Shown one piece after another: positions 10,701 to 31,509 of a stretch of 32,888 bases of DNA (positions are counted from its first letter, which is position 1; each line of letters begins with the position of its first letter). The stretch is from positions 1 through 32,888 of the forward strand of contig LT642212.1 in NCBI GenBank assembly GCA_900128585.1, read 5' to 3'. The notes under the pieces are model-generated. The model saw only the letters and a list, made by a program, of their open reading frames with translations. It was not told the DNA's origin and did no database searches. Position numbers and translations under genes: made by a program. This DNA comes from Stramenopiles sp. TOSAG23-3. Lineage: Eukaryota.

Positions 10701-11196
10701 TCCAAAATTTACCAACAACAAATTCATGTTTAAAAAAGAAATCACGGACGAAGTATGCGAGTATTTCGAGACCGGCTCCATGGAAGTGGAAGTGTATGGT
10801 GCCCAGCCGGGAACGTCTATTAAAGCCAAGAAAGGGGGGGAAACGAGAGCAATGTTATCGACCGGTCAGGACTACGATGAAGACAAGGGCCCGTCGAGCG
10901 CACAGGAAAAGCACGTTGTGGAAGTAGAGAACTTGCAAAACGCAATCCTTTCGGAACGAATTAACACCAAACAGGCGTTGGACTCGGCGGTCGATCTAAA
11001 ATCACAAGTAGATCGTCTAAAGACGAGAATTATGCAAAGTGGGGGAAGCGTCGAAGACAAATATAAGATAGAGAACAATTCTTTGAAAAGGGAAATGGAC
11101 GTTTTAAAGGCAAAGCTAGAAACTTCGTCAAAGCGAGTTGCCAACCTGGAACAAAAAGCTTCGAAAACTAAGAGCGGGGTGTGCACTATTTCTTAA
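7735..11196 (+). CDS. Kinesin-3-type (KIF28/KLP-6-like) protein: motor, FHA, coiled coil, C2-like domain, C-terminal CaaX
   Basis: N-terminal ARVRP; FDGYNTAVLLHGQTGAGKSYT P-loop; SYFEIYNEEVVDL; LKDALGGNAKT; FHA segment (TTIGR...TFVNG...RLHHGDRILFG); WNYDKFMARLYLMREMY/DPF motif typical of kinesin-3 tails; ends CTIS*. Confidence 0.88.
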   Translation: MAGNDCVDMFAIVARVRPLVRAEIEKGWRVSAEIDEDRNVVILRKSGMRKTFKCDHVHGQDSATKSVFNANVAPLCDKTFDGYNTAVLLHGQTGAGKSYTGHALVNEAFRLIFAKIGAVQNPKIRHFVSASYFEIYNEEVVDLWSPDTLKNLARTPKSCVSFKCHPRHGVYGKRLVQCSVDSATTAESLLKMGKATGAVVATSANMDRSRTSTCLSISLKRISKNKFGEDEEVVSTMKFVELPGSDMKGTMQGANTDRLRTTCKIDTQLSAFKKVVKTLADNATKYAHNPRPVPYDQSPLTLFLKDALGGNAKTLVMCMIAPSDGDFDDSMATLGFADKVMRYVRNRAVVATGVRKGMIKSLKSEIEFLADEALAIDKEIESAKNIASLDVPTGDEKTGEGEYTYLEGISPQERAALAAERREKFEKLDVKRSLAIERMEEDKYLLDIASMQWKEVVEGTDIQTETQSTQLENLGVTYLPGMRKLKTTPHLITLCRDPSMTGALTFMLEKGDTTIGRDKGISLEGLGIDHDQGTITNKDGVLTFVNGGGATTFVNGAQIFLYDVPANPDDIPRKASPTRLHHGDRILFGQYHLFLVQNLAECEPSATKKKKTRKGGGGGKEEEDTRDMALLKDWSFAMQELYAEAIGGKMAKELEVRQAVETKAALSSEKLQVIEAEMTSEKEKLKEWTTSAKKKQQHPPAKLRQEQDKCRHRIDQLERRLAEQLGVDGNLQSKISTLDREKKVIEGQLTASLPLVSEVNAYAKAFGKALSFSAKLVADHSKSILALPNVSKSAGSKKEDAAEQLEVGVEVVPVKKSGPKASTIPVMWNYDKFMARLYLMREMYRSYVRGGRTVACLRKLYTKDNDPFGDFMQHVLIGRSYLYLDSLSYFLEFEDSVPIVDYRGKDNGFVKLKIVPRRLGDSDLFTHEIHDEGEKSTRDFVGKMFEFSVSVVSAKGIPEALCSNVFVKTRFGNETNVLRTDPCAADTTSPKFTNNKFMFKKEITDEVCEYFETGSMEVEVYGAQPGTSIKAKKGGETRAMLSTGQDYDEDKGPSSAQEKHVVEVENLQNAILSERINTKQALDSAVDLKSQVDRLKTRIMQSGGSVEDKYKIENNSLKREMDVLKAKLETSSKRVANLEQKASKTKSGVCTIS

Positions 11197-17200: not shown

Positions 17201-18046
17201 CACAAAGTTCCCCTCCTCGTCGGTTTTGATCCCTGTATGCTTGCGAACGTTCGCGCTAGTCTCTGCAAAGAGGGTTTCCGTGCGAGGTATAAACAGCCAC
17301 ATGTCGACCGTCAATTCGTTTTTTAAGTTCCATTTCCCTGCCCTTCCCCCTTCCGGCGAAAGCGACAAGCACCCTGTGCCCGTCAGCAGCAGTGCAGGTT
17401 TGGCGTGGAATGTTTTCGCTTGGATGGCTTTTGCTTTTCTTTTTATTGCTGATATCCCGCGCAAGAACCCCCGAAATCGCAACATGTCGCCGCCAGCTCG
17501 AGCCGCGGGTGAGGCGGCGGCTTTGCTCTCCGGGGACGGACTTGCTTGCAACACATTCCCCTCTGCGACAGACTTTTCTTCTTCGCCCTGCCCTGGGTCG
17601 GCTTTCTTCTCCAAAACGACGGGCGCCATGTTCACGGTGGAAATGATGGAGGTTTCGATGACTTTGGCGTTCATTCGACGGTTTCGTTTGTTCCTGCGCA
17701 ACTGGGACGGCGATTTCCTTGGTACATGCACGTAGGTAGACGGTGCGAGAGCGCCCCTTATATTTTTGCTATGCCGAGGGCTTGAGCTATTCAAGCGACG
17801 GCGGGGTTTACTGTTGGCCTGCTTCTTTTTTCTGGGCGGTTTTGGAGACAGTGACGCCGCTTTCCTAGGGTATCGATTGTTGTACACGCCTTGCATTTTT
17901 GCGTACGATTCGTCCTCTTCTGCGATCGCATTCACTGCATGTTTCAATACTTTCCCAACCAGTGAGTTAGAAACGTTTGGGGAATCGACCTTCACGTTTG
18001 CGGGGCTCTCCGGGTCCCCTCCTACACTGCCTTTTTTCAAGGACAT
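11300..18046 (-). CDS. Large multidomain protein (2248 aa): LamG/ConA-like, TerD-like, Rdx/SelW-like CxxC domain, beta-sandwich repeats, multiple EF-hands, coiled-coil tail
   Basis: Single 6.7-kb ORF. LamG-like TVDMWL...WVAFSAVYNG...FTGMISHIRMWNVARS; TerD-like NLDLACIALD...DLDLNVASHAVNSFVF...GLILCTMDRVENGEW; ITIRYCCDCENH...RIGAFKIT; EF loops DTDGDDSISVDEL, DPNNGGEIQMTDF, DVDNDGSISIDEM, DRDGDGMITIDEV. Confidence 0.8.
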   Translation of the reverse strand: MSLKKGSVGGDPESPANVKVDSPNVSNSLVGKVLKHAVNAIAEEDESYAKMQGVYNNRYPRKAASLSPKPPRKKKQANSKPRRRLNSSSPRHSKNIRGALAPSTYVHVPRKSPSQLRRNKRNRRMNAKVIETSIISTVNMAPVVLEKKADPGQGEEEKSVAEGNVLQASPSPESKAAASPAARAGGDMLRFRGFLRGISAIKRKAKAIQAKTFHAKPALLLTGTGCLSLSPEGGRAGKWNLKNELTVDMWLFIPRTETLFAETSANVRKHTGIKTDEEGNFVKWLCCGRKDPDIFGWCPAWQGDMTKSVIQTGDGAGSSDFTAAKQRKINQKERESQNAMRVEKKEQTNISTDKRLKEGIFAPRRTNPTLLVSQEGRFKIHDTGGYCLEKDKMYGFSVVASDGTETCLTNFSIPVDRWVAFSAVYNGFYLYAYVDGQEVAAVRRHVDTVQGQLHHSDAPVIVGGDFTGMISHIRMWNVARSNEEINAGIRHRVSVKEVHSCGLPGHVSSSANASEVFVPNELTGKTATHLLADIPFYDVSLYHGDHISDQSIFGHNAHLHCDHFGWRINPPMFFGAPRPYTDMHHLVLDPEAGHQFSTISHNKIASNWQWRPLSSLTEHMRGWGKIRIVVRWDKGAKFRSPPIAFVYKLLYKLSKQDFPQDWILDVRKSIPGRPTAGYALECRSDDPDYSFFLAMTHMDQNNQYRERVLFTSRSSKFEFPDCGSIMTKLEAQIRLFTTFWHTDVFGEVKLQLRSRLAATKDEAADSTRSLKSMIETYLEQNKLQKTLEVMQGGLAPSIKRQTFQNGMSEKPLNQTLFNQIIWILGVDMQLPQLCMLGITLENRNMHARARSEDQERDKQVAEQLAIQKLLKSSSVATMASQSPAETNKLGQAKANGKSGTFPLNPSKFPKIQHVGAGSTIPLYGGKMSSAEQRQISFSLAFSWRIKLNAGQGAAALAAIVNLDLACIALDIGGVPLDSVQRYQNHTQDHAVVAHGRQRDMRAAIHETEISKGRWVSIAQTFDLDLNVASHAVNSFVFFMFGSYLDACSQLGICTVRIQRHQHDANVVNMLVREGKRRGHPIANTMAITTHTNDIATYSVDVAGNHAGLILCTMDRVENGEWVLKTLHMPFPRALHIVEQVGNMWPMLRQHTVARRPCITIRYCCDCENHQETTWHVPGAFERLYYDVAAAIKTAYPGMLINGTPSSRRIGAFKITFQRFKGASSQVLYSALDENQGWLPTPELAAKLVVEAMESSDEENVDHEWPYNHDADARCRMKIKVYDGYYKMPIPGVAVSVHSVDSRAELNRSLAQVKEEKGKGMTNVHEMRMKRRSTMVATTDSIHTTKKRRKSSGSVTRDSRASSELNHTHTLLFTNDEGITETTLNATDTYVCQFNAPGFYPRAHPPLRVGVAADEAVKKKRGLFVKSDNAREMSIFLMPKIQTVTVALVDFESGDAVRAAGILVSLTNMQSGFKHVSETDSNGCASFNVPGGRYEENVELPEWTQVQYSLTSDSEAMRFLETARSFDLARREVVDMHRRGVVVYGESFDRIKIPGIRWPYHFTVYDSSTAAPMGGAIIQIRNRATGKLVMNTVTSELGTSYQMIPVGPPLSVCITATVNGTSYFSYQKHLPRITEFLSPSLHNAFMCPIPPPGYGRAILSWTYPLRQKIDLFTEYREYCDDGDTYSKDDLTTVWANHKVSELAELDVPGSRQGLAPVSVLVKLDPQKEFRFHARQYGTFDPILCQGTEVKPLELTDTEFRFYDEHGLVTTQLAKERLHPNAEIDEKCYIWSDMFIVRVDQSNILSLDENEFAQDDANTTSLAEQEQLRANQNTSNVDGRGEMARHSALELFRLIDPTLESESISCKTFVRAIMLQRSVQDFIASRPELVSLTSIHRASKSTLMSLDTDGDDSISVDELLAFASQLTLQRIKDLFELIDPNNGGEIQMTDFLLLAQTSEKVIKFFLDTPSLATLANPSTYINDLMELDVDNDGSISIDEMYDFMCRRALGIGSSVGKRADSDVHGAMQMVFLEEMDTRQYIRSMFDQFKPGHSDVVTATTFVRAIEINVRVRKMLEGRHYLKPLLFADDLPTLCKEIDRDGDGMITIDEVLYFARTLGEKQKEEEQRALVAAQLEIENAERERKSRVEKEKKAAVERERQAKLQREREAELQKEREAKLQQEREAKLQQEREAKLQQEREAKAQQERAAQPVTDSDGKEHLDFERKNNEAEDDIKRLEKELKDDETSGSF
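11437..11580 (-). repeat. Coding 24-nt tandem repeat encoding EREAKLQQ units
   Basis: gcttcccgttcttgctgcagtttt repeated, giving EREAKLQQ-like units in the C-terminal coiled coil. Confidence 0.9.
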
Positions 18047-18717: not shown

Positions 18718-19368
18718 GATGAAGAAGAATCTCATCACATTGAACATTTGAGATCACACAAAACACAAAAAACACAAAACACAAAACAAACAGAAATGTC
18801 ACAGTTTAAGTTTCAGTAATCTCAGAGAAGAATACCCTAACCCTAATCCAATCCTTTCTCTCTTTCCAAACCATATTCTTAACCCTAATAATAACCAACT
18901 ATAATTATATAGGAACATAAATGTATACTAATATCATACTTATATATTTGTTGTAAAGCCTTCATTGGATTTTATTATATCCTCTAATTACATACAATTA
19001 ACATTGTAATGAATAGTTTATATGTTGTTGTTAATGGTATAGTTATGTTATTTATTTACCATCCATTCATTTTTTTTTCTTTTTTTATTATTATTATTAT
19101 TTCTTTTATTTCCGCGAAGAAGAAGAAAACGAAGGAACGGAACGGAACGGGAACGGAAGGAAAGCAATTATATAGTTTACGAAACACATTTTGAAACAGA
19201 AAAGATAGAAAAGGAAAGAAATACGTGAAGGAAATTTTTACAAACATCGATATAACAGTACCGTTTTGTTCATTTCATCGTAGGACACCGTATTTTGGCG
19301 AAACACAGCGTGGGACGCTTTTTAGTCGGTTTGTATATTTCTTGATATTGTTGGACTGGCGTCGATTG

Positions 19369-20445
19369 ATGGCGTCGATTGATACCACAAACGATGCCCT
19401 GCTAGCGGAGCAAGAAAAGTTTCTGACGGCGATTCGTTCGCATTCGGGTGGGGTGACGCTTCGGGACCTTCCGGCGTCTCTCACGTCGTCCCCTTTGATA
19501 GTGGATGTAATCAATGCCCTGATACGGAGCAGGCGGTTAGAAATGAGCGGGGACCCCAAAAACCCTAGGTACAACTTTGTGGACGCCCTTCGCGCAAGCA
19601 CGCTGCGGGGAATTTTAACCGACCAGGAAACGCAAGCCGTGTACAGTAAAATCGAAGAAGCAGGGGACGTAGGGATATGGACGAAGGACATTCGCACGCG
19701 AACGAACTTGATGAAGCAGCGGGTGGACAAGATACTGAAGAAGCTGACAGCGTCCGGGCTCATCAAGTCCGTACGCTCCATAACGCACAAAAACAAGCGT
19801 TTGTACATGCTTGCCCATATTGAGCCGAACCGAGACATTACGGGCGGGCCGTGGTACACGGACACCGATTTTGATAGCGAGTTTGTGGGGTTGGTAAGAA
19901 AGCTCATTTTGTTCATTCTGAAGAACCACGACGGGAAGGGTCTTCAGGCGGCGAAAAAACGAAAGGCAGAGGTCATGGAGGCGGAAGCGTATACCGATGC
20001 CATGTCGGCGGAAGACATTGAGAAAGTTTTGAGGGAGGACAAGTATCAAAAGGCGTGCAAAGTGAAGTTGGACACGAGCAACGTTTTGGAGATCCTTCAG
20101 ACCTTGTATTACGACGGGGAAATCGAACCAGTGGTACCAACGAACATGTTGGGGGCCGGTGGCTTGCCCCGCGATTTTGTTGACCGTACCGATTGTAAAT
20201 TTAGAACACGGGCAAAGCAGTTTGGGATGGACAAGCACGATTTGAGCATAGCCCCGTGCGGCCGATGCAATTTGATCCTGGAGTGTTCGGAGCACGGGAA
20301 AGTGAGCCCGTATACGTGTAAATACATGGTGCGTTGGCTCGAAATCGGGTTGACGTCGGACGAACGGGAGCAGCTGGAATCGGAGCGGCAGTCTAGCGCT
20401 CTTGAGGCCGGTCACCCCACCGTAGTCCACGACCTGTCTTGGTGA
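19369..20445 (+). CDS. POLR3F: RNA polymerase III subunit RPC34/RPC6 (358 aa)
   Basis: VYSKIEEAGDVGIWTKDIR..., LIKSVRSITHKNKRLYML, ITGGPWYTDTDFDSEFV, ILQTLYYDGEIE; C-terminal Fe-S ligand motif PCGRC-x5-C...VSPYTCKYM; first ATG at 19369. Confidence 0.95.
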   Translation: MASIDTTNDALLAEQEKFLTAIRSHSGGVTLRDLPASLTSSPLIVDVINALIRSRRLEMSGDPKNPRYNFVDALRASTLRGILTDQETQAVYSKIEEAGDVGIWTKDIRTRTNLMKQRVDKILKKLTASGLIKSVRSITHKNKRLYMLAHIEPNRDITGGPWYTDTDFDSEFVGLVRKLILFILKNHDGKGLQAAKKRKAEVMEAEAYTDAMSAEDIEKVLREDKYQKACKVKLDTSNVLEILQTLYYDGEIEPVVPTNMLGAGGLPRDFVDRTDCKFRTRAKQFGMDKHDLSIAPCGRCNLILECSEHGKVSPYTCKYMVRWLEIGLTSDEREQLESERQSSALEAGHPTVVHDLSW

Positions 20446-20936: not shown

Positions 20937-22289
20937 TTAATCGCGGCGGCAGACGTCTTTGAGCGCGGAGACGATGTCCTTTGCGCTATTCCCTCGCTCG
21001 CACAAGTTGACAACAACCCGGGTGTGTTTCAGACTATAGTCGGTGTACCCGCCACAGTACGTATCGTACGCCGCATTGACCGCACGGTGGCAGTCGAACG
21101 ATTTGGGGGTGTACTGCTTCGAAGTCAACATTTCTTCCACGACAGCCTTGCCGTCGGATTGGTGAAGCTTTCGGACCAGGTTTTTGAAAATAGCGTCGGC
21201 GTTCTCTCGGCTTTCGATCTCTTTGATGAGGCGGCGGGCATCGCTACTTTCACCCGTTCGCATGTACCGGTGGTACAGCTGAACAATGGCAATGTCGCGG
21301 GAGTCCACGTTCCCGGCTTCTTTCGAGGCGGCGCCGCCGGCGGACCCAACGAGCCGGGTTTCGACGGTGGTGCGAAGGGCGTTGGACGGGGCAGGGAGGT
21401 CTTTGTCACCTTCAAAGTCCGCGGCGGGAAGGTCGGTGAAGTTCTGCGTCCCGAACTGCTGCACGTGGCTTTTGTTGGTGAGCTGTTTGACGACCTGGTA
21501 CTGCTTCTCCAAGGTCTCCTTCGTCAGGTCGGTGGAGTCCGCGTTTTCCATCCAGTTGACGGAGTACAAATCCCCGAGGCAGGTGTGCAAGTCTTTGCCG
21601 TTCACCTTGTCGTTCGGCGGGCAGTACGTTCCCCAGCTGGACTCTTGCCCGTTCGCGGCCGTGGTGATGTAAATGTTCATGTCCTTCAAGTCGTCCAAGC
21701 CTTCGAACATGGAACCACTCTCGCAGGCTTCGACGTAAAAGACCAACTCTTTGTACATTTTCTTCTGGTACATGGTCTGGAGGGCCTGGTGCAGCTTGTC
21801 CTTGTACAGGTACGGTGGGTTCGGCATGGCGATCAGCCCCGTGCCTCCGTGGTCAACAAAGTTGATGAAGACGCGGTCCTCGTTCGTGCTCTCGAGGACG
21901 CGCCCGGTGCCTTGGCCCTGGACGGAGTCTTTGTCGCCCGTGATGACGGCGATGAAGTTCTTCGCGTTCACTTCGCCCTTGGTGTAGTCCTTGACGCAGC
22001 CCGCGTACACGTCCGTTCCGGGCGTTCCGGCTTGCGTGGGTTGGTTGAACAGTTTGCCCTTGAACGGGTTCTGCCAGCTTTGCGCAACGTCGTCGTACAT
22101 CATCAGAATGATGTTCTTTGCCGGGATCCCCTGCTTCAGCATGATCTGGTACGCATGGCACACATCCGCATGGTGGCGGTAGTTCTGGTACCCGTGGGAG
22201 CCTGCAATAAGCACAGCGTAGTGGTCAGCCTGCACCGCAGTTGCAACCAAGGCAACCGCAAGGAAAAGAGACGTCAACGTTCGAATCAT
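20937..22289 (-). CDS. LGMN: Legumain / vacuolar processing enzyme (peptidase C13) with signal peptide (450 aa)
   Basis: Signal peptide MIRTLTSLFLAVALVATAVQA; YAVLIAGSHGYQNYRHHADVCHAY; catalytic His in DHGG and Cys in EACESG; ESSWGTYC; TCLGDLYSVNWME; C-terminal LSAM prodomain cysteines. Confidence 0.95.
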   Translation of the reverse strand: MIRTLTSLFLAVALVATAVQADHYAVLIAGSHGYQNYRHHADVCHAYQIMLKQGIPAKNIILMMYDDVAQSWQNPFKGKLFNQPTQAGTPGTDVYAGCVKDYTKGEVNAKNFIAVITGDKDSVQGQGTGRVLESTNEDRVFINFVDHGGTGLIAMPNPPYLYKDKLHQALQTMYQKKMYKELVFYVEACESGSMFEGLDDLKDMNIYITTAANGQESSWGTYCPPNDKVNGKDLHTCLGDLYSVNWMENADSTDLTKETLEKQYQVVKQLTNKSHVQQFGTQNFTDLPAADFEGDKDLPAPSNALRTTVETRLVGSAGGAASKEAGNVDSRDIAIVQLYHRYMRTGESSDARRLIKEIESRENADAIFKNLVRKLHQSDGKAVVEEMLTSKQYTPKSFDCHRAVNAAYDTYCGGYTDYSLKHTRVVVNLCERGNSAKDIVSALKDVCRRD

Positions 22290-23100
22290 TGGTTCTTGTT
22301 CTGGTTTTTGTTTCGTATTGTAAAGTAAAAGTAGCAATTTCGTTTTAACAATCCGTCTTACCCACCCACTTTTTCGCTTCTCTTTCTTTCCTTTAAACTT
22401 ATTCCCTTCGAACACCCTGATGAACTCTCTTTTCAGAAATGAGAGAAAAAGAAACGAAACGAAACAAACGAAAGATCTTTTTCTTCTTTTTTTTTCGAAT
22501 TTACCAATGCTGTGTAATGTATTCTAATTTTGCATTTCAGCAGATTTCAGCAAATAATAAAAAGAGATGAAAGAACCTCAGGATAACCCTTATCTTCATA
22601 GCATAAATAATAATATAAATACAAACGATAAGTATGAATTTGTTACTTAGTTTTATTATTAAATACGTAATAATACAAGCTAAAGTATACAATGCTATTC
22701 TTATATTGGGACTACCGATTCCATCATATAGATATATAATAGTATTACATACAATCTATAAATACAAATAATTATATTATCTGTAATATTAACTACAATT
22801 TTATGATATATAAAGTATACGTATAATACTATTTCTATGTATCTAAGAATTTGGAAGGCGAAGAGAAGAATAGTTTCACAAATCACACACAACAACATGA
22901 CCACAGCATTAAATCATAAATCGATGTATTTTAATTCCATGCTATGACTATGTATTTCTTGTGCGTGAGTAAAAAAGAATCAAATCAAACATCCTCCTTT
23001 CTTCCAAAAAGTTAGGGCACAAAACAATTAAGTACAATTATATAAATACTAATATTTAATATGGATAGTGTTAGAAAAGATAAGAAGATTTCAATCAAAA

Positions 23101-23195: not shown

Positions 23196-23557
23196 AAGAT
23201 AATAAAATAATAATAGAAGAAAAGAAGGGAGAGAGACACGACGACCCGTACTAAGAAAGAAAAGAAAAGATAGAAAGAAAGAACGAGTGAGTATAGTTTC
23301 AAGTTTCAAGAGTGGAAAAGGTTTTGACACATCGATGCGTTGTTTGATTATTAGGGGAAATGGCATTTTCATTATTAAAACCTTGATTTTGTTTTGTAGG
23401 CCTTAATATTGTTTCATTCTTTTTTGCGGACCATATTGATTATTTGCCTTAAAAATTCGCATTTTCTCATTTTCCACAAAACCTGTTGTCGCGTTCGCCA
23501 GGTCTTTCTTCGTCGTCGTGTATTGGGTCTTATTTTTCACGCCAAACTAGTAGTAGC

Positions 23558-25009
23558 ATGCCAAGGAAACGCAAGAATGCAAGTTCGACCACGTCCGCAG
23601 CGTCGGTTCGAACCACGTCGACTGCTGCAAAATCGTCCGGATCAGGGAACAAGATGTCGGCCGCAGAAATTGCAGCCGCGGGTTCCGTGTCGAAGTTTGT
23701 CGCCGGACTAGCTCGTAGCGTGAACGCGGCCCCGGACGAAGTGTGCTGTTGGACGGCCAAAGGCGACGCGTTCGTCATTGCCGACGCCGCGCGGTTTATC
23801 CAAGTCCACAAGAAGAATACCCGGTTCGAAAGTTTGATCCGGCAGTTGCACTACTACGGGTTTGCAAAGGACAAGCGGACAAGCGACAAAACGTGGCGGT
23901 TTAGTCACATGTTTTTTCAACAGGGAAAGCCGTGGTTGCTGCACCGGATCGTTCGGCAGACGCAACCGAAGAAATCGGCAAAGGGGAAGGGGGCACCGGT
24001 GGAGCTCACGGTGGGACCGACGCAGACCACGCGCGCGGAAGCGAGTGCGGAAACCGCCAGGCTCCGGGAGGAAGTCCAGACGTACAAGTTGGAGAGTGGG
24101 AAGCAGGAACGGAGAATAGAACAGTTGCAGGCAAAAGTGCGCCAGGTCGAACTGTCGAGGGATCGCGTTGTGGAGAGCATGCAGCGAATGGGGCAGGACG
24201 AGGATGTCCTGCCGGATCGCAAACTCGGCCTGGTCGACATTAGCGGTCTGCTGGGGCGACCGCACAAGCGCCAAAAGGCGAGTGGCCCGTGTACGAAAGA
24301 CCAGGCGAGCAACACCGATTCGCCCCCATCCCCCGCGTCGTCGGTGGACTACAACTCCAGCCAGGAGGAGGACCGCGCGAGGGCCCCCCGGTTCTTCGGC
24401 CTGGGCATGGAGGCGCCACGGACGCTCGTGCGTACGAAATCGTCCTCGTCGAATTTTGCGGGCATGTTTTCGTCCGGGTTCGCCTCCCGCTCGAGCAGCA
24501 CGTCCTCCATCCCATCGGAGCCGCCCAAGGAGGGGCTACTTTCTCGCGGCAACAGTTTTAATTTCAACGAAGTCGCCTTCAACATGCGGCGCGACATGCC
24601 TACCCCCCCTCCCACGTTCAACACGGGCTTCCCGCCGCCGTTCTTTCAGCCACCATCTCGAGTGTCCAGGATGAAAAGCTTCACCCGGGAAATGGACAGC
24701 GATGCGAGCGCAGCGCTCAACGAGTTCGTAGCATCATCCAACGAGGATCTCCCGATAGACGAGCCGGCGGGAATATCGTCCAAAGTCCACATGTTCATGG
24801 AAGGTTGCTGCGACGATGCGGAGGGGGCCAAGTCCGAAGTCTCCCGGCACGGGGTCTTGTCGGACCAGGAAACCAAGCACTTGGCCCAACTCTTGGTGAA
24901 CTCCCCTCAGATCAAAATAGAATCCTTGATCAACCACATCATTCAAGAGTCGCATCTGTCGGGGCGGATGAAAGTTCCAGTTGCCGAAGAGGTGGCCATA
25001 GATCTGTGA
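23558..25009 (+). CDS. HSF-type DNA-binding domain transcription factor (483 aa)
   Basis: KFVAGL...CCWTAKGDAFVI...FESLIRQLHYYGFAK...WRFSHMFFQQGKPWLLHRIVR matches the HSF DBD; downstream coiled coil LREEVQTYKLE...LQAKV; first ATG at 23558. Confidence 0.88.
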   Translation: MPRKRKNASSTTSAASVRTTSTAAKSSGSGNKMSAAEIAAAGSVSKFVAGLARSVNAAPDEVCCWTAKGDAFVIADAARFIQVHKKNTRFESLIRQLHYYGFAKDKRTSDKTWRFSHMFFQQGKPWLLHRIVRQTQPKKSAKGKGAPVELTVGPTQTTRAEASAETARLREEVQTYKLESGKQERRIEQLQAKVRQVELSRDRVVESMQRMGQDEDVLPDRKLGLVDISGLLGRPHKRQKASGPCTKDQASNTDSPPSPASSVDYNSSQEEDRARAPRFFGLGMEAPRTLVRTKSSSSNFAGMFSSGFASRSSSTSSIPSEPPKEGLLSRGNSFNFNEVAFNMRRDMPTPPPTFNTGFPPPFFQPPSRVSRMKSFTREMDSDASAALNEFVASSNEDLPIDEPAGISSKVHMFMEGCCDDAEGAKSEVSRHGVLSDQETKHLAQLLVNSPQIKIESLINHIIQESHLSGRMKVPVAEEVAIDL

Positions 25010-25265: not shown

Positions 25266-27047
25266 TCACACCAATTGGGTCTCGACGTCGCCCCCCCCAC
25301 CGCTCTCATCCTGTGTGAACAGCGACTGCATCGCTTCGTAATCGATCTTTTTTGTTTTCTTGTGGCCCATGGAATGGTACGCCGCGTCGGCGGCGGTGCG
25401 GTAGACAGCGCGCTGCCCAGGCTTATCCTTCGAGCCACGTTTCCGTTTCTTTCTTGGGCGATGCTGGGTGGGGTTCAGCGTCTTCTTCTGCGCTTGCTCT
25501 TCCAAGTAGTCCTTGTTGAGCTTCTCCCATATTGCCGTCTTGCTCTTCACTTCGGCATCGCTGCACAAGTATTCCTTCATCTCGTCGTCGTGCATGCTCA
25601 GGACGCCCGGGGCTTCGGCCTCCTCCGCCGCCTTCGCCTCGCCCACCGCCTTCGCCTCGCCCGCGTCCCCGTCGTCGCCCGCCGCGTTTGCGGACGCGGC
25701 AAGCTCCCACTCGTCCACCTCCACGCCGAGCTGCTCGTACATTTCTTCGAACTCCGCGGCGCGCTCGCGCTTTTTGTCCGACAAGTTATCGTCCAGCAGG
25801 AGAAGGTGCTCGTAGGGCTCCCCCTTCTTCTTCGCGTCAAGGATCGCCAGGCGCTGGTTTTCCAAGCGGTCGAGCTCGCGTGCCCGCGTAAAGCTCGGCG
25901 GGTCGCACTCCTCGGGCAAGTCCAGGCGGTCGAACTCCTCCGGCGTCAGCTGCGCCGTCGGCGTGTTGGCGAACTCCCCCAGCCGTTTCCGGAGCGTTTG
26001 GTCGCATATTCGCGTGACGCTCACAATGTCCTTCTGGGTCCGCTTGAACCCGTGGAGCCCGGCGGCGAGGAACAGCGCCGCGGCGCAAATCCCTGCCGGG
26101 CGCCGGCCCGTCTGGATCCAGTCCTTCTTGAACCGCTTTACCAGGCGCAGCGCCGTCATGGCGACCTGGTGGGTCTTCTCCCCGCCCCCAAACTCTAACT
26201 TACTGCTGAAACGATGAATGTACAATGTGGGTTCGATGAGGGGCAGCGACAGGTTGAGCAGTCGGCAAAATTTCAAAAAGCACGTCCCCAGCTCGTACAC
26301 GTTGACCTGCAACGCGTCCGAAAAGTCTATCAGCAGATACGGTGATTTCTCCGTCCGGCACACAATGTACAAGCAGGCCGCGACGACGTGGGTGGTCCGG
26401 CGCCCTTGCACAAAGTTTCGCTGCACCGCGAGGAGAAACAGGCGGTGGGCACTGTCCACGTAGTGCTGGCCCAGGCGCAGCTTTGCCGCCAGGCCCGAGA
26501 TCCGCTTGCGCCCGTTGTTGATCGTTATCTCCCGGCTCTCCTTCGTGTACGTTATCCCGTGCACGGCCATCCCGGAGCTGAACGACTTGGTCGCCGTCGC
26601 GGACACGTACTGACCCACGATCGAGGAGGTCCCGGAGGAACTCTCTGCGAACTGGACCGAGGCCACGATACTATTCTCTTCCAAAACGGTACCGCACGAC
26701 ATGCAGACCGCATTCCCGCTCCCCTCGTCCCGGTCGATGTTCGACGACCCGCACTTCGGGCACCCGATCTGCGACGGTCTCGGCAACGCTGGCTGTTTTG
26801 CCTGCTGAATGGGCGTCACGAGGGCCTGCGGCGGGGGCAGCAGGTCACCCCCGGCCGGCGTGCTCGGCACCGCCGCCGGCGTTGCCAGTGCGGCCCGGCG
26901 CCGTTGTTCCTGCGGCGGCGCCTCTTGCGTGGAGGCCGTGCTGGCCACAGAAGGCTGGCCAATTCTTACCTGCGTAAGCGGCGTTCCCACGGGCACCGAA
27001 ACCGGCCGTGGGGCAGGCATCGGGGTGGACAGTTTGTGCGAAGCCAT
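25266..27047 (-). CDS. BRF1: TFIIIB subunit BRF1 (593 aa)
   Basis: Zn ribbon CPKCG...AVCMSCGTVLEE; ESREITINNG; cyclin folds FVQGRR...AACLYIVCR...LLIDFSD; DWIQTGRRPAGICAAAL; TLRKRLGEFANTP; ECDPPSF; TBP-binding block EVKSKTAIWEKLNKDYL; KKIDYE; first ATG at 27047. Confidence 0.95.
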   Translation of the reverse strand: MASHKLSTPMPAPRPVSVPVGTPLTQVRIGQPSVASTASTQEAPPQEQRRRAALATPAAVPSTPAGGDLLPPPQALVTPIQQAKQPALPRPSQIGCPKCGSSNIDRDEGSGNAVCMSCGTVLEENSIVASVQFAESSSGTSSIVGQYVSATATKSFSSGMAVHGITYTKESREITINNGRKRISGLAAKLRLGQHYVDSAHRLFLLAVQRNFVQGRRTTHVVAACLYIVCRTEKSPYLLIDFSDALQVNVYELGTCFLKFCRLLNLSLPLIEPTLYIHRFSSKLEFGGGEKTHQVAMTALRLVKRFKKDWIQTGRRPAGICAAALFLAAGLHGFKRTQKDIVSVTRICDQTLRKRLGEFANTPTAQLTPEEFDRLDLPEECDPPSFTRARELDRLENQRLAILDAKKKGEPYEHLLLLDDNLSDKKRERAAEFEEMYEQLGVEVDEWELAASANAAGDDGDAGEAKAVGEAKAAEEAEAPGVLSMHDDEMKEYLCSDAEVKSKTAIWEKLNKDYLEEQAQKKTLNPTQHRPRKKRKRGSKDKPGQRAVYRTAADAAYHSMGHKKTKKIDYEAMQSLFTQDESGGGGDVETQLV

Positions 27048-27600
27048 GGTAAAAGAATGCAACGGCCGTTCTTCTACCGGGCGGGCAACCGTCCTCTCTC
27101 CGCGTGTGTGCGTGTGTGAGTTCGTACGACAACTAACCCTCTGAAGAGTACTACTCAAACCGTAGGTCTCAACCGAATACTATGTCCACAGAAAGTAATG
27201 CACGGAAACCAATGCGTTCAAAATGAATCACTCGATGTTCACTGCATCATTCGTAGTCTGTCAATCCCATTTTATTCTTCATTTATTTTATCTTTTTCGA
27301 TTGGTGGTTTCCCTTCTTTTTTTGCATTCTTTCTTTCGAAGCAAAAAAAAAAATTTTTGAAGGAAAAAAAATCGAAATATTTAACCGTCATTATATAGGT
27401 AAACCATAAACGAATACAAACTAAAACGTACTTACAAAAACACACGTATTACATAGTACAACAAACAAATACTTTTCTATTCCATCGTCGCCAATCAAAT
27501 CCCTGGAAAGATAGAATACATAAAGATGGTACTTTTTATAAATCATATCCAATAGATTCAACCCATTTTGATTTGTGGTTCTCTCTGAGTTTTTGGAGTT

Positions 27601-27633: not shown

Positions 27634-27783
27634 TAATTGAAGAAGAAGAAATCTATATAATATTCTAATACGAAATGATGAAAAAGAAGAAGGGTGAAAA
27701 AGAATGAAAAGTATGGTGGTTGGTAATTGGTTGCGATTCAACGAAGCGAAGTATTGAAAATCATAGCGAAAATAACGAAGCGA

Positions 27784-29439
27784 ATGAATCGTTTTTGCGC
27801 GTTTGCGGCGGTGTTGGTGTTGGCGGACCTTTCGTTTCTAATTGGGAGGGTGGAATGTCGGGGCGACGATCCGAACCCGAACTTTGCAGACTTGTGGGAC
27901 GAAGATTTGGAAGAAATTAGTGTGCCCGAAAAGCTAGTGGTGACCTCCGGGAAAGTCCCGTCGTTCTTGTCGGGGGGTGTCTTGGTCCGGAATGGGCCAG
28001 GGCAGTTGCGGTCGCCAAAGCGCAACTTTACGTGGGCGTTCGACGGCCTGGCAAAGCTTTACTCGTGGACGTTTTCCGCGACGGACAGCAACGACGTATC
28101 CTACCGGTCGGCGTTCGTCCGTTCGAAGACGTTCAACAAAACACGCGAGGACAAAAAGTTCCCGAAGATGATGACGGTAGGGGACGTGGTCCCCAAGTAC
28201 GGGCCGTTGGACGGGATCATCCCCATCCACGACAACGTGAACGTGAACGTGTGGAAGTTTACGGACGACCCGAGGCGTGCGATGACGCTGACCGACAGCG
28301 TCGACAGCGTCAACTTTGACCCAGTGACGTTGGCAACGGAGGGTGTCCAGACGTGGTCGAACGACACGCTGAAAAGCACGGAGATCTCCTGCGCCCACCC
28401 GCACATTGAGCCAAACACGGGGGGGACCTCCCTGATCAACTACGCCTTGGCCGTGAACCCGATGGGCAATGTCACGATACAAATGTACCGCATGGGAAAA
28501 GACCGCGTGCGGAAGCCGTTCGGCGTGTACTCCAAAGGGGTCCCGTTCACGCCGTACATCCACTCGTTCTCCGTGACGGAGCGGTACGTGATCCTCCTGG
28601 TCTACCCCACCGCGTACGACATGATGTGCATGATTCTCGGAAAGCCGATGCACGAGTGCATGGCGTGGAAAGGGAAGACGACCAAGACCCAAGTGGTGGT
28701 CTTTGATCTGAAGAGCACCGACCCGAACAAACCGCCCGTCTTCGTCACCGAGACCGAAGCTTTCCATTCCCAGCACCACATCAACGCGTACGAAGTGCCC
28801 TCGGGGGCGACGGGGGGGGCGAGCATCGTCCTGGACCTTTGTGCGTACGTGAGCCCCGTGTTCTGGACCAGCAAGTACCCGTTCGGCGACCTCGAAGTCA
28901 TGAAGGCCCGTACCTCCAGGAACCAGGTCGGCGGGTTTGGCACGTACCGACGGTTGAACATTCAGTTCGCCGAAGACGGCACCGGGAGCGTCGGCATCCT
29001 GGACATCCCTGTCAAGGACGAGAAAGGAAACGTCTACACGGTAGACTTTCCGTTCATCAACCGCGGCATTGGGTTCGGGGGGCTGGACGGGAGCCACTAC
29101 TGCAAATTCTTTGCCCTCTCCCCCCGCGCCCGGAACAGCACCGAATTCGCCGACTGGGCGATCGTCCAAGTCGACGCCTGCGCCCCGAAATCCGCCCCAA
29201 ACGCAAAAGTATGGTTCAAAGAACGGCACTACCCAGGGGAGCCAATATTTGTGCCCGAAACCCCAACCGTTCCGACTGAAAACGGTGTCCTGTTGGTGAA
29301 TGTCTTGGACGGTGTTGAAGAAACAAGCTACGTGCAAGTCTTGAATGCGACAACAATGGAATCTGTGGCAAGAATTGACCATGCAACCCACAAAACCTTG
29401 CCTTACATGCAACACGCATCGTTCTTTAAAACAAATTAA
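27784..29439 (+). CDS. Carotenoid cleavage oxygenase / RPE65-family protein with predicted N-terminal signal peptide (551 aa)
   Basis: GKVPSFLSGGVLVRNGPG, WAFDGLA, DNVNVNV; four candidate Fe-binding His (CAHPH, YIHSF, QHHINAYE, MQHASF); DFPFIN; PGEPIFVP; ENGVLLVNVLD; first ATG at 27784. Confidence 0.92.
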   Translation: MNRFCAFAAVLVLADLSFLIGRVECRGDDPNPNFADLWDEDLEEISVPEKLVVTSGKVPSFLSGGVLVRNGPGQLRSPKRNFTWAFDGLAKLYSWTFSATDSNDVSYRSAFVRSKTFNKTREDKKFPKMMTVGDVVPKYGPLDGIIPIHDNVNVNVWKFTDDPRRAMTLTDSVDSVNFDPVTLATEGVQTWSNDTLKSTEISCAHPHIEPNTGGTSLINYALAVNPMGNVTIQMYRMGKDRVRKPFGVYSKGVPFTPYIHSFSVTERYVILLVYPTAYDMMCMILGKPMHECMAWKGKTTKTQVVVFDLKSTDPNKPPVFVTETEAFHSQHHINAYEVPSGATGGASIVLDLCAYVSPVFWTSKYPFGDLEVMKARTSRNQVGGFGTYRRLNIQFAEDGTGSVGILDIPVKDEKGNVYTVDFPFINRGIGFGGLDGSHYCKFFALSPRARNSTEFADWAIVQVDACAPKSAPNAKVWFKERHYPGEPIFVPETPTVPTENGVLLVNVLDGVEETSYVQVLNATTMESVARIDHATHKTLPYMQHASFFKTN

Positions 29440-29871
29440 GTCAGCTCGATTTTATATATTTTTTTATCAAAAAACTCGTTCTTCTTATTGAATCTTTCTT
29501 CTTCTGTATTTGAAATTACAATGCTGTGTTGGTGTTAAATTAAAAGGTGGGAAATTTTTCATTATCAATCCTGTGTGCCTATTAACAATTTGTCGTTGAC
29601 ATTTAAACTAACGTATGTTGGTGGTATAATTTAGTAAACGATACTATGTTAATGTATCATTTTGTTGTAAGATTCGTTCGTCACAGAAATGAAAAAATCA
29701 TGACACCGAACGAACAAATGTGAAAACGAAAACGAACGGGGGTGGTGGGGGAAAAGGAAAGCAATTGGGAAGGCATTGAATGGACAACGCATTCGTCGCA
29801 GAAAAGCATTTGAGCATTCGACGTGTATCTGGTATTGTAGTCGATCCACCAGAAAGAAAGGTAACGAGAGA

Positions 29872-30603
29872 ATGGCGATTACAGAGTTGTCTGCCGACCA
29901 ATGGGTTGGTCGTTGGAGCAGTGGGAAAGCGAGGCGAGAGCCAAAGGTAGACGGGGGGGCTGCCCCGGCACGTCCCGTGGTACTTGTCCAGTATGGGCAT
30001 TACATTGGGTGACCTTCGAAGAAAGGCGCTGCTCCTGAGCCGCCTTTCTCAACAAGTCGTGATAGGATTGAAAATTTAGTGCAAGAGCTGGAAGACGCGG
30101 GCTTCCGCCCCGTCGAGGAGCTGTCGACGGGTATAATGGTGATGAACCCGACCGTGACCGTGCGTGCCATCGACGGGACCGTGTTGACGGAGGTGGGAAA
30201 CATCCGGAAACTCGGCAAGAAAGGGGAGCCGGACAGGTTTGGGGTGCTCGGGGAGAGCAAAGACTCCGTCTTTGCGTACTACAGCAGATGGTTCGGGTAC
30301 CAGAAGCCCGTGAACCGAATCAACTTTGGGGAGGACGATGAGTTCGGGTTCAGCGACGACGAGTTCGCCGTCGAAAAGCCCGCCGCACCGACCACCAGCG
30401 CAAGCGCGTACACCCCGTCAAGCGTGAAGATTGACTTTGGGGAGGTTGACGATGAGTTCGGGGGCGACATGTTTGCCAGCTCGCTCGACGTGAACGAGAA
30501 CAAAGCCCCGGCGGGAAACACGGAGACACCGGCCGCGCCGCCGAAACCAATTGCCCCGGCCGCGACCGCTTCCTTCACCTTTTCGATGGACGAAGATTTT
30601 TAA
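29872..30603 (+). CDS. Candidate selenoprotein (243 aa, Sec at residue 47 from in-frame TGA 30010-30012); UPF0728/C10orf53-like domain plus acidic tail
   Basis: ATG at 29872. Frame stays open across a single TGA: ...VVLVQYGHYIG-U-PSKKGAAPEPPFSTSRDRIENLVQELEDAGF... to TAA at 30601-30603. Type II SECIS in the 3' UTR and a stem-loop 7 nt after the UGA. Confidence 0.85.
30020..30049 (+). promoter_or_regulatory. Putative Sec redefinition element (SRE)-like stem-loop downstream of the UGA
   Basis: AGAAAGGCG (30020-30028) is perfectly complementary to CGCCTTTCT (30041-30049), with an inner GCT/AGC pairing; begins 7 nt after the TGA. Confidence 0.55.
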
Positions 30604-30687
30604 AAGGTCCATATTTTGCACGACGAAACGTGGGCCGACGGGGGAGTCGCCCCTTCCGAGATAGAACGGCGCAGCAGACCATTTCAA

Positions 30688-30763
30688 GCATGATCTATGA
30701 CGTCCATACGGCTGAAAGAAATCCTTTTGTTACAGGGAGACAGCCAATGGACCGAGACGATGC
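30688..30763 (+). promoter_or_regulatory. Eukaryotic SECIS element, type II
   Basis: Core ATGAC (30697-30701)/CGAG (30753-30756); helix II GTCCAT/ATGGAC and GGCTG/CAGCC; unpaired AAAGAA at 30715-30720; apical mini-stem TCCTTTTG/CAGGGA; helix I GCAT/ATGC. Confidence 0.88.
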
Positions 30764-31509
30764 CGCAGGGCCCTTGGACGGGCATGATTGAGATACAAAA
30801 CGACTTGCAATCATGTGATGGACCGGGGCCACAATCGCGGCAGTACATTTTTAAAAAAGGGCATGCGGCCTGTTCGTTTGCTGCGCGTACAGCGTTTTGA
30901 GTGAGTGTAAAAAATAATATGTTTTAAACTGAGACAAATGTAACGTATAGGGAATCCCTTCATTACTACTTCGGGAGAGTAATTTTCGATGCCCTGCCGC
31001 CCAATGAATTATGTTTCCGAGCCAGTGGTTTTCATGTTGATTAAATCAATGCGACGCACTTCTCGTGTTACGCTTTCTTGCGAAAATAAGTGAGGGGGTG
31101 AACCGAAGAGACGCGTCGTTTTCTTGGTTGTTTTACGAAGTATTTCTCTGGAAAATTATTAAAACATACACTACTGTATAATTTGTGTTTTACGACGTAC
31201 AACCCTCTATCTTAGCAGTGTAACCGTAAAATTATGTTTGCACTTCCATTTTTAAAACCAATCGTAATTTAACCTTTGTTCGCTTACGCGTGTTAGCGCT
31301 GGGCCCCAAGTACACTCGCAAGTACGCGCTCTGCTGCATCGAAAGAAACGACGCGGGCGACCCCGACGATACACCCATACGAATAAGAGTGCCGAGTCGG
31401 GTCCGTTTCCTTTCATTTCTTTCTCCTCCTCCCCGCCTTGCCTTTTGTTCCGCGCGCACGAACGGGCGACCGCCCGGCCACCACCCCCACTCCCTCCGGG
31501 AGAGCACAT

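What the first reader, a model, noticed from the sequence alone, without database searches (positions are those of the whole stretch)
29872..30763. Hidden selenoprotein: in-frame UGA plus type II SECIS, apparently a Sec form of the uncharacterised UPF0728/C10orf53 family
Seen in sequence: ORF-track fragments 29776-30012 and 30079-30603 share a frame and are separated only by TGA 30010-30012. Read-through from ATG 29872 gives 243 aa: MAITELSADQW...PVVLVQYGHYIG-U47-PSKKGAAPEPPFSTSRDRIENLVQELEDAGFRPVEEL...VTVRAIDGTVLTEVGNIRKL. A canonical SECIS lies about 90 nt past the TAA. TGA is a normal stop in four neighbouring genes (calcyphosin, RPC34, HSF, BRF1), so this is not codon reassignment. From recalled family sequences (not a database search): UPF0728/C10orf53 proteins read V(V/T)LRYGPYxxCG...HRTxRLxGLQxVLxxDGH, and U47 in YGHYIGU falls at the Cys position of YGPYxxC. 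Inference: a Sec/Cys pair would mark this family as a thioredoxin/Rdx-like oxidoreductase. I do not know it among the standard eukaryotic selenoprotein families, though it may correspond to a 'hypothetical' algal selenoprotein.
Basis: partly seen in the sequence, partly recalled or inferred. Interest (0 to 1): 0.93.

Follow-up and report, generated by a model that had tools for sequence, protein, structure and literature searches.

The report
Hidden selenoprotein related to ciliary C10orf53
A marine protist gene that looks cut in two by a stop codon almost certainly reads that codon as selenocysteine, and its small thioredoxin-like domain most resembles an orphan mouse cilium protein, which hints that this orphan family does redox chemistry.

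Summary
ATG 29872 to TAA 30603 is one 243-codon frame with a single TGA at 30010-30012.

- **Conserved TGA:** three metagenome homologues carry a TGA at the same column, with protein conservation on both sides.
- **TGA present in RNA libraries:** RNA-library contigs from four studies cross it unchanged and without a splice joint.
- **TGA is still a stop here:** it ends four neighbouring genes.
- **SECIS-like hairpin:** all four genes have an AUGA...AAA...GA hairpin 75-111 nt after the TAA. Eight of nine comparable helix positions vary yet always pair. Rfam finds no SECIS, and the 3' core departs from the published consensus.
- **Fold:** two AlphaFold models give an Rdx/thioredoxin-like fold. 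The only PDB match with Z of 8 or more is chain V of mouse radial spoke 3 (Z 10.6 and 10.7). SelW/Rdx proteins follow at 6.2-7.0.
- **Pfam UPF0728:** hits are sub-threshold, in 2 of 4 homologues and not the window's protein. They appear only with Cys at the Sec column.

Verdict: a real selenoprotein, probably a distant Sec-bearing relative of UPF0728/C10orf53. I found it in no catalogue I could read.

The parts
29872..30603 (+). Coding sequence of the selenoprotein: 243 codons including the Sec codon, plus the TAA stop
   Evidence: Homologues align over the whole length. GC3 is 0.57 before the TGA and 0.74 after it, against 0.41 in the upstream in-frame leader.
30010..30012 (+). In-frame TGA, codon 47, read as selenocysteine
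   Evidence: A TGA sits at the same alignment column in L001 (38-40), L002 (698-700) and L003 (711-713). RNA-library contigs of 4 studies cover it with no change and no joint.
29971..30294 (+). Rdx/thioredoxin-like domain (residues 34-141), order b1-a1-b2-b3-b4-a2, with Sec in the b1-a1 loop
   Evidence: AlphaFold models. Structure matches: 9d2f_V at Z 10.6 and 10.7, SelW/Rdx proteins at 6.2-7.0.
30295..30573 (+). Low-confidence acidic tail with repeated acidic-aromatic motifs (DDEFG, DMF)
   Evidence: pLDDT is about 45-59 beyond residue 150. DFG and DMF motifs recur in the homologues.
30574..30600 (+). Conserved C-terminal peptide ending in DEDF-COOH (F-x-F-S/N/T-M/L-D-E-D-F)
   Evidence: Invariant or nearly invariant columns. 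Present in every homologue that reaches its C-terminus.
30697..30756 (+). SECIS-like element, type II architecture. It has the 5' core AUGA (30697-30700), a lower helix of 6 bp and an upper helix of 5 bp. An unpaired AAAGAAA follows (30715-30721), then an apical mini-stem and the 3' core CGAG (30753-30756).
   Evidence: The same architecture occurs in L001, L002 and L003, 75-111 nt after their TAA. No Rfam SECIS hit.
29825..30827 (+). Span covered by RNA-library contigs, the likely extent of the transcript
   Evidence: table 8: pieces from X17 begin at 29825 and pieces from X9 end at 30827. There is no cover outside this span in the 29700-30900 stretch laid. Contigs cannot prove transcript ends.

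Best explanation
This is an intron-less gene for a 243-residue selenoprotein. The UGA at codon 47 is recoded to selenocysteine by a SECIS-type kink-turn hairpin about 94 nt into the 3' UTR. This is the ordinary eukaryotic mechanism, in which SBP2, eEFSec and tRNA-Sec act on the hairpin (that part is inferred, not shown).

Residues 34-141 form a small Rdx/thioredoxin-like domain in the order b1-a1-b2-b3-b4-a2. The single Sec lies in the loop after the first strand, within the conserved motif G-H-Y-I-[S/G]-U. This is the region where Rdx and thioredoxin proteins carry their redox motif.

I therefore expect a one-selenol redox protein that forms a transient selenenyl-sulfide with a thiol partner (inferred). 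The domain is probably (about 0.65) a distant homologue of UPF0728/C10orf53, a stalk protein of mouse ciliary radial spoke 3.

The disordered acidic tail, with DFG/DMF motifs and an invariant ...DEDF carboxy-terminus, most likely docks the domain onto a partner protein (inferred).
For: **Recoding**
- The frame has exactly one in-frame TGA.
- The three metagenome homologues, at 40-49% identity to one another, have exactly one in-frame TGA each, at the same column. The flanks are conserved on both sides (P.V...GHYI upstream, P[YF][ST]TSRDRI downstream). Codons before the TGA differ synonymously: GGG/GGT/GGA, CAT/CAC, ATT/ATC.
- Database forms that cross the column show W there (P0003, P0004, P0005, P0019, P0023, P0026). 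They come only from contigs of 1541 nt or less. The same 90% clusters hold 148- and 151-aa forms, from contigs up to 19165 nt, that start 47 residues downstream. This fits TGA having been read by code 4 on short contigs.
- None of the 26 database forms in alignment A5 crosses the column under the standard code.
- RNA-library contigs from 4 studies cross 30010-30012 with no difference and no joint.
- TGA terminates four neighbouring genes that have full-length Pfam domains.

**SECIS**
- All four genes have AUGA(C/A)-helix-(G)AAA-mini-stem-helix-(U/C)GAG, 75-111 nt after the TAA.
- Of 9 comparable helix positions, 8 vary and all 36 cells are standard pairs.
- The strain variants in run X17 that fall inside the element (an inserted A after 30714, and 30718 G>A) lie in the unpaired A-rich loop.

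**Fold**
- Model 1 has domain pLDDT blocks of 73-90. Model 2, of the L003 homologue, has pLDDT 81.7 and pTM 0.75.
- 9d2f_V is the only chain with Z >= 8 among 48,161 representatives for both models. For model 1: Z 10.6, rmsd 2.3, 85 aligned. For model 2: Z 10.7, rmsd 2.5, 89 of 92 aligned.
- Mouse SelW and SelW-related proteins follow at 6.2-7.0, then thioredoxins.
- The paper that deposited 9D2F lists C10ORF53 (UPF0728, 10 kDa) in the RS3 stalk (passages read).
- Pfam UPF0728 scored E 0.025 (L003) and 0.13 (L001). Both hits appear only with C at the TGA, not with X or W.
Against: **Against the SECIS reading**
- No Rfam SECIS model matched the window or the three loci at E <= 10, and nothing in the window reached a gathering score.
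- The 3' core is UGAG or CGAG, while the published consensus is KGAW.
- My own scanner found only the window's element correctly. It missed L001 and L003 and mispaired L002.

**Against, or untested for, recoding**
- Sec machinery could not be checked because no genome is held.
- No Cys-containing member of this family was found. That removes the usual Sec/Cys pair argument within the family.
- RNA-library contigs show presence, not translation, and such libraries can contain DNA.

**Against UPF0728 membership**
- Pfam scores are about half the 27-bit cut-off.
- The window's protein and L002 give no hit.
- Profile searches of PDB sequences found no 9d2f chain.
- Foldseek E-values were all above 0.001.
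- The name of chain V was not seen.
- The loop that holds the Sec is modelled with low confidence.
Confidence: 0.8

Rival explanations
1. It is a real selenoprotein, but an independent Rdx/thioredoxin-like family. The likeness to UPF0728/C10orf53 would then reflect only a common small fold, not descent.
For: Pfam UPF0728 hits are sub-threshold and seen in only 2 of 4 homologues, never in the window's protein. phmmer over 1.84 billion representatives found only 12 relatives, all of this family. Profile searches of PDB sequences did not reach 9d2f. The protein is 243 aa with a long acidic tail, whereas the matched chain has 92 residues.
Against: The match to 9d2f_V stands 3.6 to 3.9 Z units above the next chain in three searches with two independent models, and covers 85-89 of 92 residues at rmsd 2.3-2.5. 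UPF0728 is the only Pfam family hit by two of the four full-domain homologues. Both hits begin at profile position 6, and the L001 hit spans positions 6-73 of 88.
Confidence: 0.25
2. The UGA is not read as Sec. Either it is a leaky stop read through by a near-cognate tRNA (Trp, Arg or Cys), or it terminates. In that case only a 46-residue peptide or a downstream-initiated fragment would be made.
For: No curated SECIS model matches. The 3' core departs from the consensus. Sec machinery is untested. There is no Cys form in the family.
Against: A conserved hairpin that co-varies and has AUGA, unpaired A's and GA sits at a fixed distance after the stop in 4 of 4 genes. The first strand before the UGA and the rest of the domain after it fold as one unit in both models. 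The UGA lies in the loop where this fold carries its redox residue.
Confidence: 0.07
3. The TGA is a sequencing error, a fresh nonsense mutation in a pseudogene, or TGA is reassigned to Trp in this organism.
For: Database translations show W at this column.
Against: RNA-library contigs from 4 studies carry the same TGA. Three divergent homologues have it too. TGA ends four neighbouring genes whose Pfam domains run close to their ends. The W forms coexist with truncated forms of the same clusters.
Confidence: 0.02

Closest known systems
UPF0728 / C10orf53 (Pfam PF15092), a stalk subunit of mouse radial spoke 3 (PDB 9D2F, probably chain V)
   Same: The domain size and fold are the same. The match is Z 10.6 and 10.7, rmsd 2.3-2.5 A, with 85-89 of 92 residues aligned at 19-21% identity. 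Weak Pfam hits in register start at the first strand. They depend on Cys at the Sec column, which suggests the family profile favours Cys there.
   Different: It carries Sec. It is 243 aa long, with a roughly 100-residue acidic tail and a conserved ...DEDF end. Pfam scores are below the cut-off, and the window's own protein gives no hit at all. C10ORF53 is described only as a structural stalk protein next to MDH1B. A ciliary role for this protist protein is untested.
Rdx family (selenoproteins W, T, H, V; SelW-related bacterial proteins)
   Same: It has the same b1-a1-b2-b3-b4-a2 thioredoxin-like fold, with the selenium or sulfur residue in the b1-a1 loop. Mouse SelW (2npb) scores Z 6.7-6.8 and the bacterial SelW-related proteins 6.2-7.0.
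   Different: There is no CxxU or CxxC motif. The motif is G-H-Y-I-[S/G]-U with no Cys three residues before it. No Rdx family appeared in any Pfam scan at E <= 10. The Sec sits about 7 residues before the first helix rather than at its start.
Lineage-restricted algal selenoproteins (the 'Hypo', MSP and SymSEP families of the algal selenoproteome surveys)
   Same: It is a small protist selenoprotein of unknown function, found (as far as sampled) only in the Sec form, like the families listed as almost exclusively Sec-containing (PMC7539508, section 5).
   Different: None of the family names in the abbreviation list or the sections I read corresponds to UPF0728 or to this motif. The 16 Thalassiosira selenoproteins listed in PMC2375036 do not include it. 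The make-up of 'Hypo' is in supplements that I could not open.
Eukaryotic type II SECIS element
   Same: It has the AUGA 5' core, a tandem GA/AG-capable 3' GA, a helix of about 11-12 pairs with a small internal loop, unpaired A's directly after the helix, and an extra apical mini-stem. It lies in the 3' UTR.
   Different: The 3' core is UGAG or CGAG instead of KGAW. It is not detected by the Rfam covariance models. The L003 copy has a long A/U-rich apical region.

Membership tests
Eukaryotic selenoprotein gene (UGA-Sec with 3' UTR SECIS) | In-frame UGA conserved in homologues, with protein conservation on both sides | tested here: met
   4 of 4 DNA sequences have the TGA at one alignment column, and the flanks are conserved. 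Synonymous differences occur upstream of the TGA.
Eukaryotic selenoprotein gene (UGA-Sec with 3' UTR SECIS) | SECIS architecture in the 3' UTR (AUGA core, unpaired A's, GA, helix lengths), conserved with compensatory changes | tested here: met
   Present in 4 of 4 genes, 75-111 nt after the stop. 8 of 9 helix positions vary and 36 of 36 cells pair.
Eukaryotic selenoprotein gene (UGA-Sec with 3' UTR SECIS) | Recognition by a curated SECIS covariance model, and a core consensus of UGAN/KGAW | tested here: not met
   No Rfam SECIS hit at E <= 10 in the window region or in L001-L003. Nothing reached a gathering score. The 3' core is UGAG or CGAG. SECISearch3 was not available.
Eukaryotic selenoprotein gene (UGA-Sec with 3' UTR SECIS) | Sec machinery (tRNA-Sec, SBP2, eEFSec, PSTK, SepSecS, SPS2) in the same genome | not testable with these tools
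   No genome is held for this window. There are no earlier notes on this genome.
Eukaryotic selenoprotein gene (UGA-Sec with 3' UTR SECIS) | Selenium actually incorporated at the UGA | not testable with these tools
   Needs 75Se labelling or mass spectrometry.
UPF0728 (Pfam PF15092) | Score at or above the Pfam gathering cut-off (27 bits) | tested here: not met
   The best scores are 14.8 bits (L003) and 12.5 bits (L001). The window's protein and L002 give no hit at E <= 10.
UPF0728 (Pfam PF15092) | Same fold as a solved member | tested here: met
   9d2f_V scores Z 10.6 and 10.7 and is the only chain with Z >= 8 of 48,161, with two models. That chain V is C10ORF53 is inferred from its 92 residues and the paper's subunit list. 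The chain's name was not seen.
UPF0728 (Pfam PF15092) | Cys at the column that holds Sec here (a Sec/Cys pair) | tested here: inconclusive
   This is indirect only. The UPF0728 hits appear with C at the TGA and vanish with X or W. No UPF0728 sequence could be fetched to read the column directly.
UPF0728 (Pfam PF15092) | Single-domain protein of about 90 residues | tested here: not met
   This protein has 243 aa, and the full-length or near-full-length homologues have 175-223 aa, each with an acidic tail. The Pfam profile has 88 positions.
Rdx family (SelW/T/H) | CxxU or CxxC motif in the b1-a1 loop | tested here: not met
   The motif is G-H-Y-I-[S/G]-U in 4 of 4, with no conserved Cys nearby.
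Rdx family (SelW/T/H) | Thioredoxin-like b1-a1-b2-b3-b4-a2 fold | tested here: met
   Secondary structure. SelW and SelW-related chains score Z 6.2-7.0.

The most novel reading that the evidence does not exclude
UPF0728/C10orf53 is not a mere structural brick of radial spoke 3. It would be a redox-active Rdx-type protein whose loop cysteine is the working residue. This marine-protist branch, which replaced that residue with selenocysteine and added an acidic docking tail, would be the natural Sec/Cys pair that exposes the chemistry. If so, the spoke stalk would carry a thiol/selenol redox sensor beside the MDH1/MDH1B NADH module.
Probability: 0.3. Interest if true: 0.75.

Novelty: new member of a known kind. 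Interest (0 to 1): 0.62.

Why it matters
Gene callers cut this gene at the UGA. Every standard-code database entry of the family lacks the first strand and the selenocysteine, so the family is invisible as a selenoprotein.

A Sec residue is one of the strongest sequence-level markers of redox catalysis. This one falls in the redox loop of an Rdx-like fold whose best solved relative is an orphan human and mouse protein that was recently placed in ciliary radial spoke 3. That gives a testable functional hypothesis for UPF0728, a family with no assigned biochemistry.

It also adds a lineage-restricted family to the selenoproteomes of marine protists. Its SECIS variant (3' core UGAG) escapes the Rfam models.

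Tried and rejected
- **Rfam:** cmscan of 29500-31300 and of L001-L003 at E <= 10, and of the whole window at gathering scores, gave no SECIS or tRNA-Sec hit. The few weak hits (snoU109, mir-598 and others) are chance-level.
- **Own genome:** not held, so the Sec machinery is untested.
- **My SECIS scanner:** too strict on helix I. It found the window's element, missed L001 and L003, and paired L002's AUGA with the wrong GA. I replaced it with constrained folds.
- **First ATGA at 30690:** I considered it as the core. I rejected it because the homologues have a single AUGA in the AUGA-N-G...C-NGAG frame that matches 30697. From 30690 the unpaired A's would also be 21 nt away.
- **PDB sequence searches:** profiles A2, A3 and A4 gave nothing relevant. 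The single hit was a de novo designed protein at E 0.96.
- **Foldseek on the PDB:** no match at E <= 0.001. 9d2f_V was rank 29 by E-value, though it had the highest probability (0.98) and the highest TM-score normalised by target length (0.73).
- **Earlier findings of this scan:** nothing on this sequence or genome, and 'UPF0728' and 'C10orf53' occur in no note.
- **Literature:** 'UPF0728' occurs in 4 papers. 'C10orf53' together with 'selenoprotein' occurs in 2, unrelated by their titles and abstract openings in the listing. A broad search for new selenoprotein families in protists returned nothing relevant in the 25 listed. A search on 'SECISearch3', 'stramenopiles' and 'novel selenoprotein' gave 13 listed papers, none naming such a family in its title or abstract opening.
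- **P0031:** a 248-aa database form whose N-terminus differs before the conserved PPFSTSRDR. I suspect a frameshift upstream of the TGA column, but I have no DNA for it, so I did not use it.
- **Profile word search with a wider E-value:** the limit is 10. The rerun found 24 family members and no UPF0728-annotated protein.
Full report
**1. The observation**

The sequence is as described. ATG 29872 to TAA 30601-30603 is a single frame of 243 codons, interrupted only by TGA 30010-30012.

The in-frame leader upstream of the ATG has GC3 0.41. The coding parts have 0.57 before the TGA and 0.74 after it.

TGA is an ordinary stop in this organism. It ends an EF-hand protein gene (2333-3430, minus strand), RPC34 (19225-20445), an HSF (23486-25009) and BRF1 (25266-27158, minus strand). 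The RPC34 and BRF1 Pfam domains run close to their ends. Codon reassignment is therefore out.

**2. The TGA is real and conserved**

A word-indexed search found 7 relatives among 784 candidates. An exhaustive phmmer search of 1.84 billion representatives found only 12 with E <= 0.001. This is a small family.

The database forms split into two kinds. Full-length forms show W at the U column and come only from contigs of 1541 nt or less (P0003, P0004, P0005, P0019, P0023, P0026). Within the same 90% clusters there are shorter forms from contigs up to 19165 nt that begin exactly 47 residues downstream. In cluster 2, of 15 listed members, 3 have 195 aa, 11 have 148 and 1 has 147. In cluster 3, 2 have 198 aa and 2 have 151. 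That pattern is what a gene caller produces when it reads TGA as Trp on short contigs and as stop elsewhere.

All three have TGA in frame at the same column: L001 38-40, L002 698-700 and L003 711-713. Each has exactly one in-frame TGA.

The flanks are conserved on both sides: P.V...G-H-Y-I-[S/G]-U-[S/P] upstream and P-[YF]-[ST]-T-S-R-D-R-I downstream. The codons before the TGA differ synonymously between loci.

A profile search found 24 members among 589 candidates. Only the three W forms cover the column, and the other 21 cover 73% or less of the query. In alignment A5, none of the 26 database forms crosses the column. I found no Cys form.

**3. RNA evidence**

Twenty public runs from 13 studies hold all or part of the stretch. 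I laid contigs of four RNA-library runs from four studies.

- Each run has a contig across 30010-30012 with no differing letter there. X13 covers 29903-30120, X17 29825-30289, X20 29964-30197 and X9 29905-30065.
- No joint was reported anywhere in 29700-30900.
- Cover runs from 29825 to 30827 and so includes the hairpin.
- Differences seen are 30240 T>C (synonymous) and 30265 T>G (Ser to Ala) in all four runs.
- In X17 only, there are also 30658 G>C, an A inserted after 30714, and 30718 G>A. The last two fall in the unpaired A-rich loop of the hairpin and leave the helices intact.

Contigs cannot prove transcription or translation, and RNA libraries can hold DNA.

**4. The 3' UTR element**

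Each of the four genes has an ATGA 75-111 nt after its TAA: window +94, L001 +75, L002 +111 and L003 +85. Each region folds by itself into the same shape, with z-scores of -1.9 to -3.1.

The shape is AUGA(C/A), a lower helix of 5-7 pairs, and a small internal loop or bulge. An upper helix of 4-5 pairs follows, then unpaired (G)AAA(A). The element closes with an apical mini-stem, the returning strands and the 3' core (U/C)GAG.

I counted pairs outward from the core and inward to the A's. Of 9 comparable positions, 8 vary between the four sequences, and all 36 cells are standard pairs, several with changes on both sides.

This is a type II SECIS architecture as described in the SECISearch3 paper (PMC3753652, passages read). 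There are two honest negatives.
- The 3' core ends in G rather than A or U, and the window has C rather than G or U before the GA.
- No Rfam SECIS model matched at E <= 10 in the window region or the loci.

My own scanner, built around the window's element, expects 0.365 hits per simulated window on both strands. It was too strict to find the homologues' copies.

**5. The protein**

Pfam gives nothing for the window's protein. AlphaFold with the family alignment gives a domain at residues 34-141 in the order b1-a1-b2-b3-b4-a2, followed by a disordered tail (mean pLDDT 64.6, domain blocks 73-90). A second model, of the L003 homologue's domain with 30 sequences, has pLDDT 81.7 and pTM 0.75 and the same order of elements.

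The Sec lies in the b1-a1 loop, about 7 residues before the helix. The loop itself is modelled with low confidence.

Structure comparison gave these results.

| Search | Result for 9d2f_V | Next best |
|---|---|---|
| Foldseek on the PDB | No match at E <= 0.001; rank 29 by E-value, but highest probability (0.98) and highest target-normalised TM (0.73) | Thioredoxins and SelW-related proteins lead by E-value |
| VIA-align on Foldseek's top 1000 | Z 10.6, rmsd 2.3, 85 aligned | Seven SelW/Rdx entries at 6.2-7.0, then thioredoxins |
| VIA-align on 48,161 representatives, model 1 | Z 10.6, the only chain with Z >= 8 | Mouse SelW at 6.7 |
| VIA-align on 48,161 representatives, model 2 | Z 10.7, rmsd 2.5, 89 of 92 aligned, again the only chain with Z >= 8 | Mouse SelW at 6.8 |

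**6. What chain V is**

PDB 9D2F is the mouse radial spoke 3 model of bioRxiv 10.1101/2025.05.19.654877 (passages read). The paper names C10ORF53 as a stalk subunit next to the N-terminal domain of MDH1B ('UPF0728 protein C10ORF53 homolog', 10 kDa). In the passages I saw, it is the only subunit of about that size.

I could not read the chain's name, and sequence searches of the PDB did not reach it. The identity of chain V with C10ORF53 is therefore an inference.

Pfam UPF0728 provides independent support.
- It is the one family hit by two of the four full-domain homologues: L003 at E 0.025 (14.8 bits) and L001 at E 0.13 (12.5 bits). The cut-off is 27 bits.
- Both hits start at profile position 6, and the L001 hit spans profile positions 6-73 of 88.
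- Both hits vanish when the TGA is read as X or W. This indicates that the profile column opposite the Sec rewards Cys.

The window's protein has a six-residue insertion after the Sec and gives no hit.

**7. Mechanism**

- **Shown:** a conserved UGA, a conserved hairpin that co-varies, and an Rdx-like fold with the UGA residue in the loop after the first strand.
- **Inferred from established knowledge of eukaryotic Sec insertion:** SBP2 binds the kink-turn core and recruits eEFSec and Sec-tRNA to the UGA.
- **Inferred from the fold and the lone Sec, with no Cys three residues before it:** a one-selenol redox protein that forms a selenenyl-sulfide with a partner thiol. The conserved His-Tyr next to it and the T-S-R-D-R helix cap are candidate helpers.

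The tail carries repeated D-F-G and D-M-F motifs and an invariant F-x-F-S-[M/L]-D-E-D-F carboxy-terminus. I read it as a docking peptide. Its partner is unknown.

**8. Comparison with known families, and novelty**

The protein works like an Rdx-type selenoprotein but fails that family's CxxU test. It resembles UPF0728 most closely in structure but fails Pfam's threshold and the family's one-domain architecture. I therefore call it a probable distant relative, not a member.

In the algal selenoproteome survey (PMC7539508; abstract, sections 5, 6 and 22, and passages read), the 42 families named do not include it. Its 'Hypo' class is defined only in supplements that I could not open. The 2007 survey (PMC2375036, passages read) lists 16 Thalassiosira selenoproteins without it, plus three Ostreococcus 'hypothetical proteins' that I could not inspect. 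Searches for UPF0728, and for C10orf53 together with 'selenoprotein', found no paper linking the two.

I rate it a new member of a known kind: a eukaryotic SECIS-dependent selenoprotein. What makes it interesting is the functional clue it gives for UPF0728.

**9. Verdict**

- Selenoprotein gene: about 0.9.
- Distant homology to UPF0728/C10orf53: about 0.65.
- Interest: 0.62.

Noticed in passing
window 30295-30600, and the tails of P0003-P0056: All family members that reach their end finish in ...F-x-F-S/N/T-M/L-D-E-D-F. They also carry one to several D-F-G and D-M-F acidic-aromatic motifs in a disordered tail. This looks like a set of short docking motifs whose partner is unknown.
   Followed up: partly
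P0031 (database protein, 248 aa): Its N-terminal part diverges from the family just before the conserved PPFSTSRDR. The residues there are what a one-base frame slip over the G-H-Y-I-G-TGA stretch would give, so this gene model probably hides the same TGA behind a frameshift. I had no DNA to check this.
   Followed up: no
window 30658, 30714, 30718 (run X17): One polyA metatranscriptome carries a strain variant with three changes in the 3' UTR. The two inside the hairpin only lengthen or purify the unpaired A-run and leave every helix pair intact.
   Followed up: partly
window 11300-18046, minus strand: An uninterrupted ORF of 2248 aa, the largest in the window. I did not examine it.
   Followed up: no
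window 829-29439: The neighbouring genes, by Pfam, are as follows:
- calcineurin-like phosphatase (829-1863)
- EF-hand protein (2333-3430, minus strand)
- PP2A-A-like HEAT protein (4947-6782)
- kinesin with a KIF1B domain (7735-11196)
- RPC34 (19225-20445)
- legumain (20937-22415, minus strand)
- HSF (23486-25009)
- BRF1 (25266-27158, minus strand)
- RPE65-type carotenoid oxygenase (27727-29439)

The long intron-free ORFs and AT-rich spacers indicate a compact protist genome.
   Followed up: partly
window 22439-22498, plus strand: My pattern scanner also flagged an ATGA...GA stretch here. It is A/T low-complexity sequence with no suitable upstream ORF, so I regard it as a false positive.
   Followed up: partly
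window 29627-29715, minus strand: There is a weak H/ACA snoRNA-like match just upstream of the gene (snoU109, 26.6 bits against a 43-bit threshold, E 0.14). It is probably chance.
   Followed up: no
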